Below are positions 2,939 to 48,452 of a stretch of 64,000 bases of DNA, in pieces (within the stretch, counting starts at the first letter, position 1; the number at the start of each line of letters is the position of its first letter). The translations under genes were made by a program, and so were the position numbers. The DNA lies in the NCBI RefSeq assembly GCF_016026235.1, contig NZ_CP065613.1. One strand, given 5' to 3'. The DNA is from Escherichia coli. GTDB lineage: Bacteria > Pseudomonadota > Gammaproteobacteria > Enterobacterales > Enterobacteriaceae. The notes under the pieces were generated by a model. That model had not been told where the DNA came from, searched no databases, and worked only from the letters and a program-made list of their open reading frames with translations.

Positions 2939-3012
2939 GCGGGCGTAGTTCAATGGTAGAACGAGAGCTTCCCAAGCTCTATACGAGGGTTCGATTCCCT
3001 TCGCCCGCTCCA
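2939..3012 (+). tRNA. glyU: tRNA-Gly (anticodon CCC)
   Basis: 74-nt sequence GCGGGCGTAGTTCAATGGTAGAACGAGAGCTTCCCAAGCTCTATACGAGGGTTCGATTCCCTTCGCCCGCTCCA; cloverleaf with anticodon loop CTTCCCAAG, T-loop GGTTCGATTCC, 3' CCA. Confidence 0.95.
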
Positions 3013-12274: not shown

Positions 12275-12357
12275 CCCAGAGGTATTGATAGGTGAAGTCA
12301 ACTTCGGGTTGAGCACATGAATTACACCAGCCTGCGCAGATGCGCAGGTTTTTTTTT
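12275..12357 (+). ncRNA. omrB: OmrB small RNA (RygB)
   Basis: Begins CCCAGAGGTATTGATAGGTGA and ends in the hairpin CCTGCGCAGATGCGCAGG plus a 9-T run; lies between galR and aas; matches the OmrB sequence as I recall it. Confidence 0.85.
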
Positions 12358-12471: not shown

Positions 12472-12559
12472 CCCAGAGGTATTGATTGGTGAGATTATTC
12501 GGTACGCTCTTCGTACCCTGTCTCTTGCACCAACCTGCGCGGATGCGCAGGTTTTTTTT
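12472..12559 (+). ncRNA. omrA: OmrA small RNA (RygA)
   Basis: Begins CCCAGAGGTATTGATTGGTGAGATT and ends in CCTGCGCGGATGCGCAGG plus an 8-T run; shares 5' and 3' ends with OmrB, about 200 bp downstream. Confidence 0.85.
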
Positions 12560-42417: not shown

Positions 42418-42494
<77 letters not shown>

Positions 42495-42528
42495 TCACCG
42501 TACTGCTTTTACTTCATCAAATTTTGAT

Positions 42529-42605
<77 letters not shown>

Positions 42606-42648
42606 TCACCGTACTGCTTTACTTCATCAAATTTTAATTGGTTGCGGG

Positions 42649-42725
<77 letters not shown>

Positions 42726-44108: not shown

Positions 44109-44207
44109 TGCCGGATGCGGCGTGAACGCCTTATCCAGCCTACAAATCATGCAAATCCAAAATATTGCAGGAGTTATGTAGGCCTGATAAGCGTAGCGCA
44201 TCAGGCA
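44109..44207. repeat. BIME-like pair of inverted REP elements
   Basis: GCCGGATGCGGCGTGAACGCCTTATCCAGCCTACA and TGTAGGCCTGATAAGCGTAGCGCATCAGGCA in opposite orientation; the segment is flanked by an 18-bp direct repeat (44057-44074 and 44219-44236). Confidence 0.6.
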
Positions 44208-45560: not shown

Positions 45561-46765
45561 TAATCCACCAATAATTCCAGCGCGCGGTCAACGGCATTCA
45601 CCAGCGCATCCACATCACTCTTTGTATTATATGGCGCAAAAGAGGCGCGCAGTGTGCCGGTTACGCCTAATTCTGCCAGTAGCGGCTGAGCGCAATGTTG
45701 CCCGGCCCGCAAGGCAATACCGTACTCCGCCAGCAGCGTCACCATATCGCTGTGATGAACGCCAGCAAAATCAAAGGCCAGCTGGCTGGAATCCTGACAG
45801 CGGAATGAACGGAAGCCTGGACGTTTCGCCAGCGCATCTTCCGCCAGTGTTGCTAAACTACGGCTCCAGCTTTCGGCCTGGTTGATATCGTAATCTGCCA
45901 GCCATTCCAGCGCCGCGCTTAATCCTATGACACCAGCCACATTTGGCGTTCCTGCTTCCAGTTTCCACGGCGCAGATTGAGTCGTGAATCCGTCAAAACT
46001 CACTTCGTGAATCATTTTGCCGCCACCCAGCCAGGGCGACATCGCTTCCAGCAGTTCTGATTTGCCATACAGCACGCCGATACCCGTCGGGCCATACAGT
46101 TTGTGACCAGAGAAAGCATAGAAATCGATATCCAGTTGCTGAACATCCGCGGGGAAATGCACCGCCCCCTGAGCACCATCAACCATCACCACCATCCCGG
46201 CTGAATGAGCAAAGGTAATCGCTCGCGCCAGATCCGGGCAACCGCCAGTAACGTTCGACATCTGACCCAACGCCAGAATCCGACTACGGGGAGTAATCAG
46301 TTCTGGCAACAAATCGACATCCGGCAGTCGCTGCGCATTAAGCGGCAATTTCACCACTTTGGCTCCAGTTTGTTGGGCAACCATCAGCCAGGGGACGAGG
46401 TTAGCGTGGTGTTCTGCCACGCTGACAATAATCTCATCGCCCGGTTGCAGACGCGGACGCGCATAGCATTGTGCCACCATGTTGATGGATTCAGTGGTGC
46501 CGCGCGTCCAGACGATAGTTTTATCATCCGGTGCATTCAGTAATTGCGCCACTTTCTCTCGTGCAGCTTCATAACGCGCGGTCAGGCGTTGGGCTTCGGC
46601 AAACTGGCTGCGATGGACGTTTCCGGCGCTCAGGCTGTAAAACTGTCGAGTGGCTTCAACCACGGCTTCAGGTTTAAGCGCGGTCGCGGCGCTATCGAGA
46701 TAGACGCCCGCATCCTGTAGTGCGGGAAACTGGGCGCGAAACTGCGCGGGATTAAAAACGTTCAT
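45560..46765 (-). CDS. csdA: Cysteine desulfurase CsdA (class-V aminotransferase)
   Basis: 401-aa protein from the ATG at 46765 ([32 protein letters not shown]...); PLP-lysine context [10 protein letters not shown]. Confidence 0.9.
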
Positions 46766-46953
46766 GGTACTCCTCGGCTTGATGCACCGATCGTGACGCA
46801 AAATTCACTTTGATACAAGGAGAGTGCTAACCATCAGAATTATCTGGATATCCTGGCGAAGCCGCGTAAGTAACATATGCTGAATAGTGTTAGGCGTTAA
46901 TTTTAGCCTGTTAATCAATACTATTAAGATTTATTAATCGCTTTAAGGAGAAG

Positions 46954-47184
46954 ATGATGAAAAAGACTGCCGCAATTATTTCTGCCTGTATGCTGACTTT
47001 TGCCCTGAGCGCCTGTTCCGGTTCGAACTATGTGATGCACACCAATGACGGACGTACCATCGTCTCTGACGGCAAACCACAGACTGATAACGATACCGGT
47101 ATGATTTCGTATAAAGACGCTAATGGCAACAAACAGCAGATCAACCGTACTGACGTGAAAGAGATGGTCGAACTGGATCAGTAA
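46954..47184 (+). CDS. ygdI: Small DUF903-type lipoprotein YgdI
   Basis: 75/76-aa [26 protein letters not shown]; paralogue of ygdR. Confidence 0.85.
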
Positions 47185-47200
47185 TTCGCGATCGCAAGGT

Positions 47201-47406
47201 AAAAAAAAGCACCGCAATTAGGCGGTGCTACATTAATCACTATGGACAGACAGGGTAAATGTACAGGAAGTGAAAAAAGGTAGCTTTGCTACCATGGTCT
47301 GAATCGCAGACCAATTGCAAACACAACAACACAACATCACAACCGTAAGCCAAAAGTTCACCAGAACACGCATTCCGATAAAACTTTTCGTTCCGGCTCA
47401 GGAAGT
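47201..47406 (-). ncRNA. gcvB: GcvB small RNA
   Basis: Minus-strand sequence begins ACTTCCTGAGCCGGAACGAAAAG..., contains the G/U-rich stretch GTTGTGATGTTGTGTTGTTGTGTTTG and ends in the hairpin AGCACCGCCTAATTGCGGTGCT plus a T-run; divergent from gcvA. Confidence 0.85.
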
Positions 47407-47534
47407 GCCGCCACTATAGGTATTTGCTGGTAGAAGCTCAACGGACAATTTATAATGGCTCAGATTAAAAAAACTAATAGGTTACACAGTGTAATCTAAT
47501 TGTTAAATTCATTTAACATCAAAGTTTAAAAGCC

Positions 47535-48452
47535 ATGTCTAAACGATTACCACCGCTAAATGCCTTACGAGTTTTTGATGCCGCAGCACGCCATTTAAGT
47601 TTCACTCGCGCAGCAGAAGAGCTTTTTGTGACCCAGGCCGCAGTAAGTCATCAAATCAAGTCTCTTGAGGATTTTTTTGGGCTAAAACTGTTCCGCCGCC
47701 GTAATCGTTCACTCCTGCTGACCGAGGAAGGGCAAAGCTATTTCCTCGATATCAAAGAGATATTTTCGCAATTAACCGAAGCGACGCGTAAACTCCAGGC
47801 CCGTAGCGCCAAGGGGGCGTTGACGGTCAGTTTACTCCCCAGTTTCGCCATTCATTGGTTGGTTCCGCGACTTTCCAGCTTTAATTCAGCTTATCCGGGA
47901 ATTGACGTTCGAATCCAGGCGGTTGATCGTCAGGAAGATAAGCTGGCGGATGATGTTGATGTGGCGATATTTTATGGTCGGGGCAACTGGCCGGGGCTAC
48001 GGGTGGAAAAACTGTACGCCGAATATTTATTGCCGGTGTGTTCGCCGCTACTGCTGACAGGCGAAAAACCCTTGAAGACCCCGGAAGATCTGGCTAAACA
48101 TACGTTATTACATGATGCGTCACGCCGTGACTGGCAGACATATACCCGACAGTTGGGGTTAAATCATATCAACGTTCAGCAAGGGCCAATTTTTAGTCAT
48201 AGCGCCATGGTGCTGCAAGCGGCTATTCACGGGCAGGGAGTGGCGCTGGCAAATAACGTGATGGCGCAATCTGAAATCGAGGCCGGACGTCTTGTTTGCC
48301 CGTTTAATGATGTTCTGGTCAGTAAAAACGCTTTTTATCTGGTTTGTCATGACAGCCAGGCAGAACTGGGTAAAATAGCCGCCTTTCGCCAATGGATCCT
48401 GGCGAAAGCCGCTGCTGAACAAGAAAAATTCCGCTTTCGTTATGAACAATAA
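47535..48452 (+). CDS. gcvA: Glycine cleavage system transcriptional activator (LysR family)
   Basis: 305-aa ORF with N-terminal HTH (LNALRVFDAAARHLSFTRAAEELFVTQAAVSHQIK). Confidence 0.95.
   Translation: MSKRLPPLNALRVFDAAARHLSFTRAAEELFVTQAAVSHQIKSLEDFFGLKLFRRRNRSLLLTEEGQSYFLDIKEIFSQLTEATRKLQARSAKGALTVSLLPSFAIHWLVPRLSSFNSAYPGIDVRIQAVDRQEDKLADDVDVAIFYGRGNWPGLRVEKLYAEYLLPVCSPLLLTGEKPLKTPEDLAKHTLLHDASRRDWQTYTRQLGLNHINVQQGPIFSHSAMVLQAAIHGQGVALANNVMAQSEIEAGRLVCPFNDVLVSKNAFYLVCHDSQAELGKIAAFRQWILAKAAAEQEKFRFRYEQ

What the first reader, a model, noticed from the sequence alone, without database searches (positions are those of the whole stretch)
47185..47534. GcvB sRNA divergent from gcvA, with its terminator immediately after convergent ygdI
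The minus-strand segment carries the G/U-rich region and terminator typical of GcvB. Its 3' end lies only about 17 bp from the ygdI stop codon, so the hairpin may terminate both convergent transcripts.
Basis: partly seen in the sequence, partly recalled or inferred. Interest (0 to 1): 0.35.

Follow-up and report, generated by a model that had tools for sequence, protein, structure and literature searches.

The report
GcvB sRNA gene, terminator shared with ygdI
This is the well-known E. coli regulatory small RNA gene gcvB, sitting between gcvA and ygdI exactly as in the reference genome; its terminator hairpin also marks the end of the oncoming ygdI messenger RNA, which published 3'-end maps already show, so the finding is correct but ordinary.

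Summary
Rfam's GcvB model (RF00022) matches window 47201..47406 (minus strand) end to end at 199 bits (E 1e-46). The 206 nt are identical to E. coli K-12 gcvB (b4443). gcvA (47535-48452, +) is divergent. ygdI (46957-47184, +) is convergent, with a 16-nt spacer between its stop codon and the last U of GcvB.

The speculative part, that the hairpin serves both transcripts, holds as far as 3'-end formation goes. Published Term-seq (Adams 2021) puts the ygdI mRNA 3' end at window 47232/47233 in three growth conditions. A TRS re-analysis (2023) gives a peak at 47228-47237. Both lie just past the hairpin (47208-47229). The two RNAs therefore overlap 3'-to-3' by about 25-37 nt.

The hairpin is not a symmetric bidirectional intrinsic terminator. 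It has U8 on the gcvB side (discriminant +32 to +38) but UACAUUAAU on the ygdI side (-31 to -46). Whether ygdI transcription truly stops there, or stops downstream and is trimmed back, is unresolved.

In 61 of 73 Enterobacterales species with convergent ygdI, the gap is only 8-38 nt and ygdI has no terminator of its own.

Novelty: already known. Interest: low.

The parts
47201..47406 (-). gcvB gene (GcvB sRNA, 206 nt; TSS at 47406, annotated 3' end at 47201)
   Evidence: Rfam RF00022 at 199 bits, full length. 100% identical to K-12 b4443, annotated as an ncRNA.
47346..47400 (-). GcvB 5' stem-loop SL1 (GcvB nt ~7-61)
   Evidence: Rfam consensus structure and the MFE fold.
47315..47344 (-). R1, the G/U-rich single-stranded seed region (GcvB nt 63-92) that pairs with CA-rich sites in target mRNAs
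   Evidence: Position. Unpaired in the Rfam consensus. Function as described in PMC3879156.
47296..47312 (-). GcvB stem-loop SL2 (nt 95-111)
47273..47293 (-). Internal hairpin GGUAGCAAAGCUACC plus U6 (SL3, the 'first terminator'; nt 114-134)
   Evidence: Terminator-like site. Discriminant +8 in the gcvB direction and -57 in the antisense direction.
47257..47272 (-). R2 conserved region CACUUCCUGUACAUUU (nt 135-150)
   Evidence: Upper-case (conserved) positions in the Rfam consensus. Position.
47201..47229 (-). GcvB Rho-independent terminator: stem-loop 47229..47208 plus the U8 tail down to 47201
   Evidence: discriminant +32 to +38. The core CACCGC...GCGGUG plus a U-run (7-9 U) is conserved in 116 of 120 Enterobacterales loci while the loop varies.
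46957..47184 (+). ygdI CDS (75-aa DUF903 lipoprotein), convergent with gcvB
   Evidence: ORF. Pfam DUF903 at 83.9 bits. K-12 annotation b2809.
47185..47233 (+). ygdI 3' UTR. It comprises a 16-nt spacer, A8, and the antisense copy of the GcvB terminator hairpin. The mapped mRNA 3' end is at 47232/47233 and the TRS peak runs 47228-47237.
   Evidence: Term-seq in three conditions (PMC7815308 supp 1). TRS (PMC10687069). The hairpin folds at -14.4 kcal/mol on this strand. The tail ACAUUAAU has no U-tract, and no + strand terminator was found.
47285..47395 (+). C-rich, G-poor tract (antisense of GcvB R1 and SL1) that any ygdI read-through RNA would contain; a rut-like composition
   Evidence: 60-nt windows have a C/G ratio of 2.1-4.0, the 99.5th percentile of the 64-kb window. 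This is a compositional inference only.
47413..47441 (-). gcvB sigma-70 promoter: -35 TTGAGC (47441..47436), 17-nt spacer, -10 TATAGT (47418..47413), with the TSS 7 nt downstream at 47406
   Evidence: Promoter scan. Both hexamers are conserved or nearly invariant in 12 genera. Promoter mutations lower GcvB levels (PMC3879156 Fig S1 legend).
47452..47478 (+). Presumed gcvA -10 (TATAAT, 47452-47457) and the invariant A-run plus CTAAT (47474-47478). This is the region where the gcvA promoter overlaps the upstream activating region of gcvB.
   Evidence: Invariant columns in the 12-genus alignment. The overlap of the two promoters is stated in PMC3879156. Assigning CTAAT to GcvA binding rests on my recollection of Wilson et al. 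1995 and was not tested.
47535..48452 (+). gcvA CDS (LysR-type regulator), divergent from gcvB
   Evidence: ORF. Pfam HTH_1 and LysR_substrate. K-12 annotation b2808.

Best explanation
The segment is the gcvB gene of E. coli. From a sigma-70 promoter that overlaps the divergent gcvA promoter, RNA polymerase transcribes a 206-nt Hfq-dependent sRNA. GcvA activates this transcription when glycine is abundant. The sRNA's unstructured G/U-rich R1 region pairs with CA-rich sequences at the ribosome-binding sites of many amino-acid and peptide transporter and biosynthesis mRNAs and represses them. Transcription ends at a canonical intrinsic terminator (GC-rich hairpin 47229..47208 plus U8).

ygdI converges on gcvB with only a 16-nt spacer, so the same DNA palindrome is transcribed in antisense as the last element of the ygdI 3' UTR. 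The mature ygdI mRNA ends 3-8 nt beyond it. The hairpin therefore defines the 3' ends of both RNAs, which overlap 3'-to-3' by about 25-37 nt.

Shown: the identity, anatomy and conservation of gcvB, and the 3'-end positions on both strands (public Term-seq and TRS). Inferred: the mechanism on the ygdI side. My preferred reading, at about 50%, is as follows. The hairpin is a true terminator only for gcvB. On the ygdI strand it acts mainly as a pause site and a barrier to 3'-exonucleases. Polymerases that pass it are stopped shortly downstream, plausibly by Rho loading on the CA-rich antisense of R1, and the RNA is trimmed back to the stem.
For: Identity: Rfam GcvB at 199 bits, full length. 100% identity to annotated K-12 gcvB, with the same neighbours. 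Present in 5,423 of 5,426 complete E. coli genomes. Flanking proteins are DUF903 and LysR. The promoter hexamers with the TSS at the right distance are conserved across 12 genera.

Known biology of GcvB (GcvA and glycine activation, R1 pairing with CA-rich targets, promoter overlap with gcvA): PMC3879156.

Shared hairpin: the ygdI primary 3' end is at window 47232/47233 in LB OD 0.4, LB OD 2.0 and M63, with read counts of 36,630, 1,164,820 and 441,780. The GcvB 3' end is at 47208 (PMC7815308 supp 1). An independent TRS analysis gives peaks at 47228-47237 (ygdI) and 47192-47206 (gcvB) (PMC10687069).

Asymmetry: the terminator scan finds the site on the minus strand only. The discriminant is +32 to +38 on the gcvB side and -31 to -46 on the ygdI side. 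TRS lists a maximum U-tract of 8 versus 2.

Trimming and Rho lean: 3' ends immediately after a stable stem-loop that lacks a U-rich tail, with a rut region just downstream, is the signature of Rho-dependent transcripts described by Dar & Sorek 2018 (PMC6061677 abstract). The + strand 47285-47395 has a C/G ratio of 2.1-4.0, the 99.5th percentile of the window.

Comparative: in 61 of 73 species with convergent ygdI the gap is 8-38 nt. In those species the best hairpin on the ygdI strand within 160 nt of the stop codon is always the GcvB terminator, always with a negative discriminant. Of the 12 species with 62-172-nt gaps, three (two Hafnia and Entomohabitans) carry a separate hairpin with a U-tail in the spacer by the scoring. 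The spacers printed suggest imperfect hairpins in Rahnella that the scan did not score.
Against: Nothing argues against the GcvB identification.

Against the Rho-plus-trimming step: Adams et al.'s list of Rho termination regions (supp 2) has no entry on the ygdI strand near this locus. That test is weak here, because its 800-nt downstream window contains gcvA, which is transcribed in the same direction. The TRS signal for the ygdI terminus was 1.0 in one dataset, meaning essentially no steady-state read-through, which is also what efficient termination at the hairpin would give. The TRS dominant position (47236/47237) lies 7-8 nt after the stem, the canonical distance for hairpin-driven release, although TRS notes that its dominant positions tend to lie a few nt downstream of the read maximum. 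The discriminant formula was recalled from memory (d'Aubenton-Carafa 1990) and used with modern energy parameters.
Confidence: 0.93

Rival explanations
1. The hairpin is a genuine bidirectional terminator. RNA polymerase coming from ygdI is released at the hairpin itself, 3-8 nt after the stem, without Rho. This happens despite the missing U-tract, either as a weak or factor-assisted (NusA/NusG) intrinsic terminator, or by the 'overlapping bidirectional terminator' mechanism of Ju et al. 2019 and Wang et al. 2022. In that mechanism the hairpin pauses polymerases and head-on plus trailing collisions dislodge them.
For: 3' ends of both convergent RNAs flank one hairpin with a 25-37-nt overlap. 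[quoted passage not shown] No Rho region is called on the ygdI strand. The TRS signal was 1.0 in one dataset, and the dominant position is 7-8 nt past the stem. The A8 tract upstream and the stable stem are conserved in all 61 short-gap species, none of which has another terminator for ygdI.
Against: There is no U-tract: the tail is UACAUUAAU and the discriminant is -31 to -46. The ygdI 3' end sits at the same nucleotide and is 12-32 times more abundant in LB OD 2.0 and M63. In those conditions no full-length GcvB 3' end made the curated list and only internal GcvB ends appear. That is hard to reconcile with a need for dense convergent gcvB transcription. The conservation of the hairpin and its ygdI-side flank is fully explained by constraint on GcvB itself. 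I could not retrieve the SEnd-seq list to see whether this pair was called.
Confidence: 0.4
2. The proximity is incidental and has no functional consequence. The hairpin evolved solely as the GcvB terminator and Hfq-binding module. ygdI simply abuts it, and the ygdI 3' end there is a passive by-product of any stable structure blocking exonucleases. No coupling exists between ygdI and gcvB expression.
For: The sequence on the ygdI side of the hairpin (AGUGAUUAAUGUAG in GcvB sense) is part of conserved GcvB. 43 of 116 species keep the same GcvB terminator with no ygdI downstream (Photorhabdus, Xenorhabdus, Proteus, Providencia, Morganella, Edwardsiella). Separate deletions of ygdI and of gcvA did not reproduce the gcvB acid-resistance phenotype (PMC2676305). 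A cat cassette in ygdI, 71 bp downstream of gcvB, was used routinely in a Salmonella gcvB mutagenesis without reported effect (PMC3879156).
Against: This is compatible with everything observed, and it is a statement about selection rather than mechanism. The tight 8-38-nt spacing retained in 61 species, with no alternative ygdI terminator, means ygdI does depend on this element or on downstream Rho for its 3' end.
Confidence: 0.6

Closest known systems
GcvB sRNA (Rfam RF00022; E. coli K-12 gcvB, b4443)
   Same: The sequence is identical over all 206 nt. The neighbours are the same (gcvA divergent, ygdI convergent), as are the promoter, R1, R2 and both hairpin-plus-U elements.
   Different: Nothing within the gene. 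The surrounding strain differs from K-12 at 13 of 1,561 positions. Three of these fall in the gcvA leader (47487, 47493, 47530) and none in gcvB or ygdI.
Overlapping bidirectional terminators between convergent E. coli genes (SEnd-seq class of Ju et al. 2019; ynaJ-uspE model in Wang et al. 2022 bioRxiv)
   Same: A convergent pair, one hairpin in a short region covered by both transcripts, and uniform 3' ends on each flank. The ygdI side does not look like an intrinsic terminator.
   Different: One partner here is a canonical intrinsic terminator of an sRNA with U8. The ygdI end persists when gcvB output is low. Membership in the published list could not be checked, and neither Rho-independence nor collision-dependence was tested.
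Rho-dependent mRNAs whose 3' ends are set by a protective stem-loop (Dar & Sorek 2018, PMC6061677)
   Same: A stable stem-loop (-13 to -14 kcal/mol), a 3' end a few nt after it, no U-rich tail, and a C-rich/G-poor tract downstream.
   Different: No bicyclomycin-sensitive region was called on this strand in Adams et al. supp 2. The protective hairpin is borrowed from the gene on the other strand.
Canonical symmetric bidirectional intrinsic terminators (A-tract, hairpin, T-tract)
   Same: A GC-rich hairpin between convergent genes. An A8 tract precedes it on the ygdI strand.
   Different: No T-tract follows it on the ygdI strand. Hafnia and Entomohabitans do carry such a hairpin with a U-tail in their longer ygdI-gcvB spacers (and apparently Rahnella, read by eye from the spacers), which shows what the canonical solution looks like at this locus.

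Membership tests
GcvB sRNA (Rfam RF00022) | Covariance-model match above the curated gathering score over the full model | tested here: met
   199 bits against a gathering score of 42, model positions 1-204 of 204, E 1.1e-46.
GcvB sRNA (Rfam RF00022) | Conserved unstructured G/U-rich R1 seed | tested here: met
   GGUUGUGAUGUUGUGUUGUUGUGUUUGCAA at GcvB nt 63-92, unpaired in the consensus. The R1 core retrieved 120 Enterobacterales loci.
GcvB sRNA (Rfam RF00022) | Divergent synteny with gcvA and overlapping promoters | tested here: met
   The gcvA ATG lies 129 nt from the gcvB TSS. The promoter block is conserved in 12 genera. The overlap is stated in PMC3879156.
GcvB sRNA (Rfam RF00022) | Rho-independent terminator with a U-tail (Hfq-binding 3' module) | tested here: met
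   8-bp stem plus U8. Conserved in 116 of 120 loci.
GcvB sRNA (Rfam RF00022) | GcvA- and glycine-dependent expression, Hfq dependence, and repression of dppA, oppA and other targets | not testable with these tools
   Taken from the literature for the identical K-12 gene (PMC3879156).
Symmetric bidirectional intrinsic terminator | U-tract following the hairpin on both strands | tested here: not met
   The ygdI-side tail is ACAUUAAU, no + strand terminator was found, and the discriminant is -31 to -46.
Symmetric bidirectional intrinsic terminator | 3' ends of both convergent transcripts map at the hairpin flanks | tested here: met
   Public Term-seq and TRS tables place ygdI at 47232/47233 (peak 47228-47237) and gcvB at 47208 (Term-seq; TRS peak 47192-47206, dominant 47200-47202).
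Overlapping bidirectional terminator (Ju et al. 2019 class) | Convergent pair with overlapping 3' ends centred on a hairpin | tested here: met
   The overlap is 25-37 nt, depending on which mapped ends are used.
Overlapping bidirectional terminator (Ju et al. 2019 class) | Rho-independence | tested here: inconclusive
   No Rho region is listed on the ygdI strand, but the 800-nt window design includes co-directional gcvA.
Overlapping bidirectional terminator (Ju et al. 2019 class) | Dependence on convergent transcription (collisions) | not testable with these tools
   There is only indirect evidence against it. The ygdI end is unchanged and stronger where GcvB full-length ends are not listed.
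Rho-dependent transcript with a protective 3' stem-loop (Dar & Sorek 2018) | Stable stem-loop immediately upstream of the 3' end, not followed by a U-rich sequence | tested here: met
   The definition is from the PMC6061677 abstract.
Rho-dependent transcript with a protective 3' stem-loop (Dar & Sorek 2018) | rut-like C-rich/G-poor region downstream | tested here: met
   C/G ratio of 2.1-4.0 over 47285-47395, the 99.5th percentile. This is composition only.
Rho-dependent transcript with a protective 3' stem-loop (Dar & Sorek 2018) | Read-through on Rho inhibition | tested here: inconclusive
   Not listed in Adams supp 2. The Dar & Sorek tables are not held.

The most novel reading that the evidence does not exclude
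The GcvB terminator palindrome is a selected dual-use element across Enterobacteriaceae. It releases ygdI-direction polymerase without a U-tract and without Rho. The resulting 25-37-nt 3'-3' overlap couples the two genes, by transcriptional interference or by antisense pairing of the ygdI 3' UTR with the Hfq-binding 3' module of GcvB. High ygdI expression in stationary phase or minimal medium would then help shut GcvB down, and the hairpin would also insulate gcvA from ygdI read-through.
Probability: 0.1. Interest if true: 0.45.

Novelty: already known. Interest (0 to 1): 0.1.

Why it matters
It matters little beyond correct annotation. GcvB is one of the best-studied enterobacterial sRNAs, and this copy is identical to the K-12 reference. 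Two points are mildly useful.

First, ygdI has no terminator of its own in E. coli and 60 other sampled species. Its mRNA ends on the antisense copy of the GcvB terminator.

Second, that hairpin lacks a U-tract on the ygdI side. This makes the locus a compact natural test case for how U-less hairpins between convergent genes create 3' ends: direct release, collision, or Rho plus trimming.

ygdI, antisense gcvB and gcvA are co-directional, so failure to stop ygdI transcription would both produce antisense GcvB RNA and read into gcvA. The element may therefore insulate the glycine-cleavage regulator from a stationary-phase lipoprotein gene. None of this is established.

Tried and rejected
1. I looked for a terminator-like site on the + (ygdI) strand between 46800 and 47700 and found none.
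2. I looked for other Rfam families in 46700-47700 with permissive filters. Only sub-threshold echoes of the GcvB terminator region appeared (Hrs13 at 28 bits, VqmR at 20 bits, both far below their gathering scores), and I rejected them.
3. I tried to read Ju et al. 2019 (SEnd-seq) by DOI and by a guessed PMC id, and Sharma et al. 2007 by PMC id. None is held, so I could not check whether ygdI/gcvB is on the published list of bidirectional terminators. The GcvB region names R1, R2 and SL1-4 partly rest on my own knowledge.
4. The Dar & Sorek 2018 and Melamed 2016 supplements are not held. The TERMITe supplements have no ygdI or gcvB entry.
5. Full-text searches for papers discussing ygdI together with gcvB found seven. 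I read the ygdI passages in two of them, and neither concerns the terminator.
6. I considered the Rho termination region at K-12 2943134 (+), antisense to ygdI, as evidence of GcvB read-through. I set it aside as ambiguous, because its 800-nt windows include gcvB upstream and csdA downstream.
7. I considered whether the two SNPs that make a perfect palindrome in the gcvA leader are special. The allele is a common polymorphism, present in 845 of 5,274 genomes.
8. The last lines of the script crashed on a locus with no hairpin. The summary counts and all 61 short-gap rows had printed before the error.

Full report
WHAT IS THERE. A gathering-threshold Rfam scan of the whole window gives one hit in the flagged interval. 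It is GcvB (RF00022) at 47201..47406 on the minus strand, at 199 bits (gathering score 42), E 1.1e-46, covering model positions 1-204 of 204. A permissive local scan adds nothing credible. The 206 nt are identical to the annotated gcvB ncRNA of E. coli K-12 MG1655 (b4443, 2942696-2942901). The neighbours are the same as in K-12. gcvA (47535-48452, +; Pfam HTH_1 and LysR_substrate) is divergent. ygdI (46957-47184, +; DUF903) is convergent. Window and K-12 coordinates interconvert as K-12 = 2990102 - window. The window comes from a non-K-12 E. coli, with 13 differences in 1,561 nt around the locus and none in gcvB or ygdI. The region is present in 5,423 of 5,426 complete E. coli genomes.

ANATOMY. 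The gcvB promoter is TTGAGC-17 nt-TATAGT (47441..47413, minus strand), with the TSS 7 nt downstream at 47406. An alignment of this intergenic region from 12 genera, from Escherichia to Proteus, Photorhabdus and Edwardsiella, is almost invariant from 47407 to 47478. The conserved block includes both gcvB hexamers, a perfect TATAAT on the + strand (47452-47457, presumably the gcvA -10) and an A-run followed by CTAAT (47474-47478). This fits the published statement that the gcvB promoter partly overlaps the gcvA promoter and that GcvA activates gcvB in the presence of glycine (PMC3879156).

Within the RNA the elements are as follows:
- SL1, about nt 7-61.
- The G/U-rich single-stranded R1, nt 63-92, window 47344..47315.
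- SL2, nt 95-111.
- An internal hairpin plus U6, nt 114-134.
- R2, nt 135-150.
- The terminal hairpin AGCACCGC-CUAAUU-GCGGUGCU, window 47229..47208, with U8 ending at 47201.

The spacer from the ygdI stop codon (47182-47184) to the last U is 16 nt, not 17. The stated interval 47185-47534 is the entire intergenic region rather than the sRNA gene.

THE ONE OPEN CLAIM: DOES THE HAIRPIN SERVE BOTH TRANSCRIPTS? On sequence alone the element is asymmetric. The consensus scan finds a terminator on the minus strand only. The hairpin folds equally well on both strands (-14.4 and -13.8 kcal/mol). On the ygdI strand, however, it is followed by ACAUUAAUCAC rather than a U-tract. A d'Aubenton-Carafa-type discriminant (formula recalled from memory) gives +32 to +38 in the gcvB direction and -31 to -46 in the ygdI direction. 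It is therefore not a symmetric bidirectional intrinsic terminator.

Adams et al. 2021 (eLife, PMC7815308, Supplementary file 1) list a 3' end classified as 'primary' for ygdI and 'antisense' to gcvB. It lies at K-12 2942870 (-) in LB OD 0.4 (mean count 36,630), 2942869 in LB OD 2.0 (1,164,820) and 2942870 in M63 glucose (441,780). These are window 47232/47233/47232, 3-4 nt past the stem. The same table has a GcvB 3' end at 2942894 (+) = window 47208 in LB OD 0.4 (134,815).

An independent study from another laboratory (TRS, Nat Commun 2023, PMC10687069) reports the following:
- A 'Primary' ygdI terminus with peak boundaries 2942865/6-2942873/4 (window 47228-47237), a signal of 1.0 in one re-analysed dataset and 0.58 in the authors' own, and a maximum U-tract of 2.
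- A 'Primary' gcvB terminus at 2942896-2942910 (dominant position 2942900/2942902, signal 0.99, U-tract 8).

Both RNAs therefore end on opposite flanks of one hairpin and overlap 3'-to-3' by roughly 25-37 nt.

MECHANISM ON THE ygdI SIDE (INFERRED). Three readings remain.

(a) Downstream termination plus trimming. Dar & Sorek 2018 showed that Rho-dependent E. coli transcripts have precise steady-state 3' ends immediately after stable stem-loops that lack U-rich tails, with rut sites just downstream (PMC6061677 abstract). The ygdI end matches that signature. The RNA a read-through polymerase would make is the antisense of GcvB R1 and SL1, a C-rich, G-poor tract. Its C/G ratio is 2.1-4.0 over 47285-47395, and one 60-nt window falls in the 99.5th percentile of the 64-kb window.

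(b) Direct release at the hairpin without Rho, either as a weak or factor-assisted terminator or by the collision mechanism proposed for 'overlapping bidirectional terminators' (Ju et al. 2019, as summarised in bioRxiv 10.1101/2022.10.23.513370). In favour: no Rho termination region is listed on this strand in Adams supp 2, and the TRS signal of 1.0 implies little steady-state read-through. Against the collision version: the ygdI end sits at the same nucleotide and is 12-32 times more abundant in LB OD 2.0 and M63. In those conditions the curated list has no full-length GcvB 3' end and shows only internal GcvB ends. The absence of a Rho call is weak evidence, because the 800-nt downstream window used for the Rho score contains gcvA, which is transcribed in the same direction as ygdI.

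(c) Pure coincidence with no functional coupling.

I lean to (a) at about 50% and (b) at about 40%. Reading (c) concerns selection and is compatible with either.

COMPARATIVE EVIDENCE. A scan of one genome per species with the R1 core returned 120 loci, all but one (a Ruminococcaceae MAG contig, L069, which lacked the terminator) labelled as Enterobacterales or unclassified Proteobacteria MAGs. In 116 of them the GcvB terminator is recognisable, with an invariant CACCGC...GCGGUG core, variable loops of 3-8 nt and a run of 7-9 U.

A ygdI homologue is convergent downstream in 73 loci. The gap between the U-run and the stop codon is 8-38 nt in 61 of these. They include Escherichia, Salmonella, Citrobacter, Enterobacter, Kosakonia, Cedecea, Buttiauxella, Erwinia and some Serratia. 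The gap is 62-172 nt in the other 12 (Hafnia, Yersinia, Rahnella, Entomohabitans). Forty-three loci have no ygdI within about 550 nt (Photorhabdus, Xenorhabdus, Proteus, Providencia, Morganella, Edwardsiella and some Klebsiella, Raoultella and Kluyvera).

In all 61 short-gap species, the best-scoring hairpin on the ygdI strand within 160 nt of the stop codon is the GcvB terminator itself, always with a negative discriminant. Among the long-gap species, three (two Hafnia and Entomohabitans) carry their own hairpin with a U-tail in the spacer, with discriminants of -0.9 to +6.9. The Rahnella spacers printed also appear to contain imperfect hairpins, but the scan did not score them. Dependence of ygdI on this borrowed hairpin, or on something downstream of it, is therefore old and widespread. 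The conservation of the hairpin and of its ygdI-side flank is nonetheless fully explained by constraint on GcvB.

COMPARISON WITH KNOWN SYSTEMS AND VERDICT. This is gcvB itself. Every testable defining feature of the family is met: the covariance-model score, R1, synteny with gcvA, and a Rho-independent terminator with a U-tail. The functional features come from the literature on the identical K-12 gene.

The shared-hairpin arrangement resembles two described classes: overlapping bidirectional terminators, and Rho-dependent transcripts with protective stem-loops. It fails the defining feature of a symmetric bidirectional intrinsic terminator, which needs a U-tract on both sides.

I found no paper that discusses the ygdI/gcvB terminator sharing explicitly. 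The two papers whose ygdI passages I read (of seven that mention both genes) use ygdI only as a flanking marker or control. The 3' ends are nevertheless already in public tables. Novelty is 'already known' and interest is about 0.1. The most novel reading not excluded is a selected dual-use element that couples ygdI and GcvB expression and insulates gcvA. I give it about 10% probability, and it would be of moderate interest if true.

Noticed in passing
window 47208 versus 47200-47202 (-): In the Adams et al. Term-seq data (LB OD 0.4), the dominant GcvB 3' end is the first U of the U8 tail (K-12 2942894). That is 7 nt short of the annotated end and of the TRS dominant position (2942900/2942902). 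It could be tail trimming, heterogeneity or a peak-calling difference. A GcvB with one 3' U would lack the Hfq-binding tail.
   Followed up: partly
window 47334 and 47339 (-), inside R1: Internal GcvB 3' ends at K-12 2942768 (LB OD 2.0, count 132,094) and 2942763 (M63), and a TRS 'Internal' peak at 2942754-2942793, fall inside the R1 seed. In the two conditions where GcvB is expected to be low they are the only GcvB ends listed. This suggests cleavage or decay intermediates ending in R1.
   Followed up: no
window ~46968 (-), antisense to the 5' end of ygdI: Adams et al. supp 2 lists a Rho termination region at K-12 2943134 (+), with a Rho score of 10.3 and p = 2e-71. It lies on the gcvB strand 233 nt beyond the GcvB 3' end. 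It may reflect GcvB terminator read-through stopped by Rho inside antisense ygdI. The 800-nt windows also include gcvB upstream and csdA downstream, so it is ambiguous.
   Followed up: partly
window 47285-47395 (+): The antisense of GcvB R1 and SL1 is a strongly C-rich, G-poor stretch (C/G ratio up to 4.0; 99.5th percentile of the window), so it has a rut-like composition. ygdI, antisense gcvB and gcvA are co-directional, so unterminated ygdI transcription would run into gcvA.
   Followed up: partly
window 47482-47494 (+), gcvA leader: Two SNPs relative to K-12 (47487 C for T, 47493 A for G) turn an imperfect repeat into a perfect palindrome, TTACAC-A-GTGTAA, with T-N11-A spacing like a LysR box. 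The exact 90-nt allele (47440-47529) occurs in 845 of 5,274 E. coli genomes, so it is a common polymorphism. This part of the leader is not conserved outside close relatives.
   Followed up: partly
window 47407-47478: The divergent gcvB/gcvA promoter block is almost invariant from Escherichia to Proteus, Photorhabdus and Edwardsiella. This includes an A-run followed by CTAAT at 47474-47478. The gcvA leader downstream of it is free to vary.
   Followed up: partly
window 12275-12356 and 12472-12559 (+): Tandem OmrA/OmrB sRNA genes (Rfam RF00079, 86 and 97 bits).
   Followed up: no
window 2939-3012 (+); 42418-42715 (-): tRNA-Gly(CCC) and three tandem tRNA-Met(CAT) genes.
   Followed up: no
window 44143-44185 (+): Rfam hit to ES036 (CssrF) sRNA, 46.5 bits against a gathering score of 37.6.
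   Followed up: no
L046, L075 (Hafnia), L095 (Entomohabitans), L038/L045/L060/L068 (Rahnella): Where the ygdI-gcvB spacer is 62-156 nt, it often contains a separate hairpin. In Hafnia and Entomohabitans this hairpin has a U-tail and scores as ygdI's own terminator. The Rahnella spacers appear by eye to hold imperfect A-tract/hairpin/T-tract elements that the perfect-stem scan did not score. This contrasts with the shared-hairpin arrangement in E. coli.
   Followed up: partly
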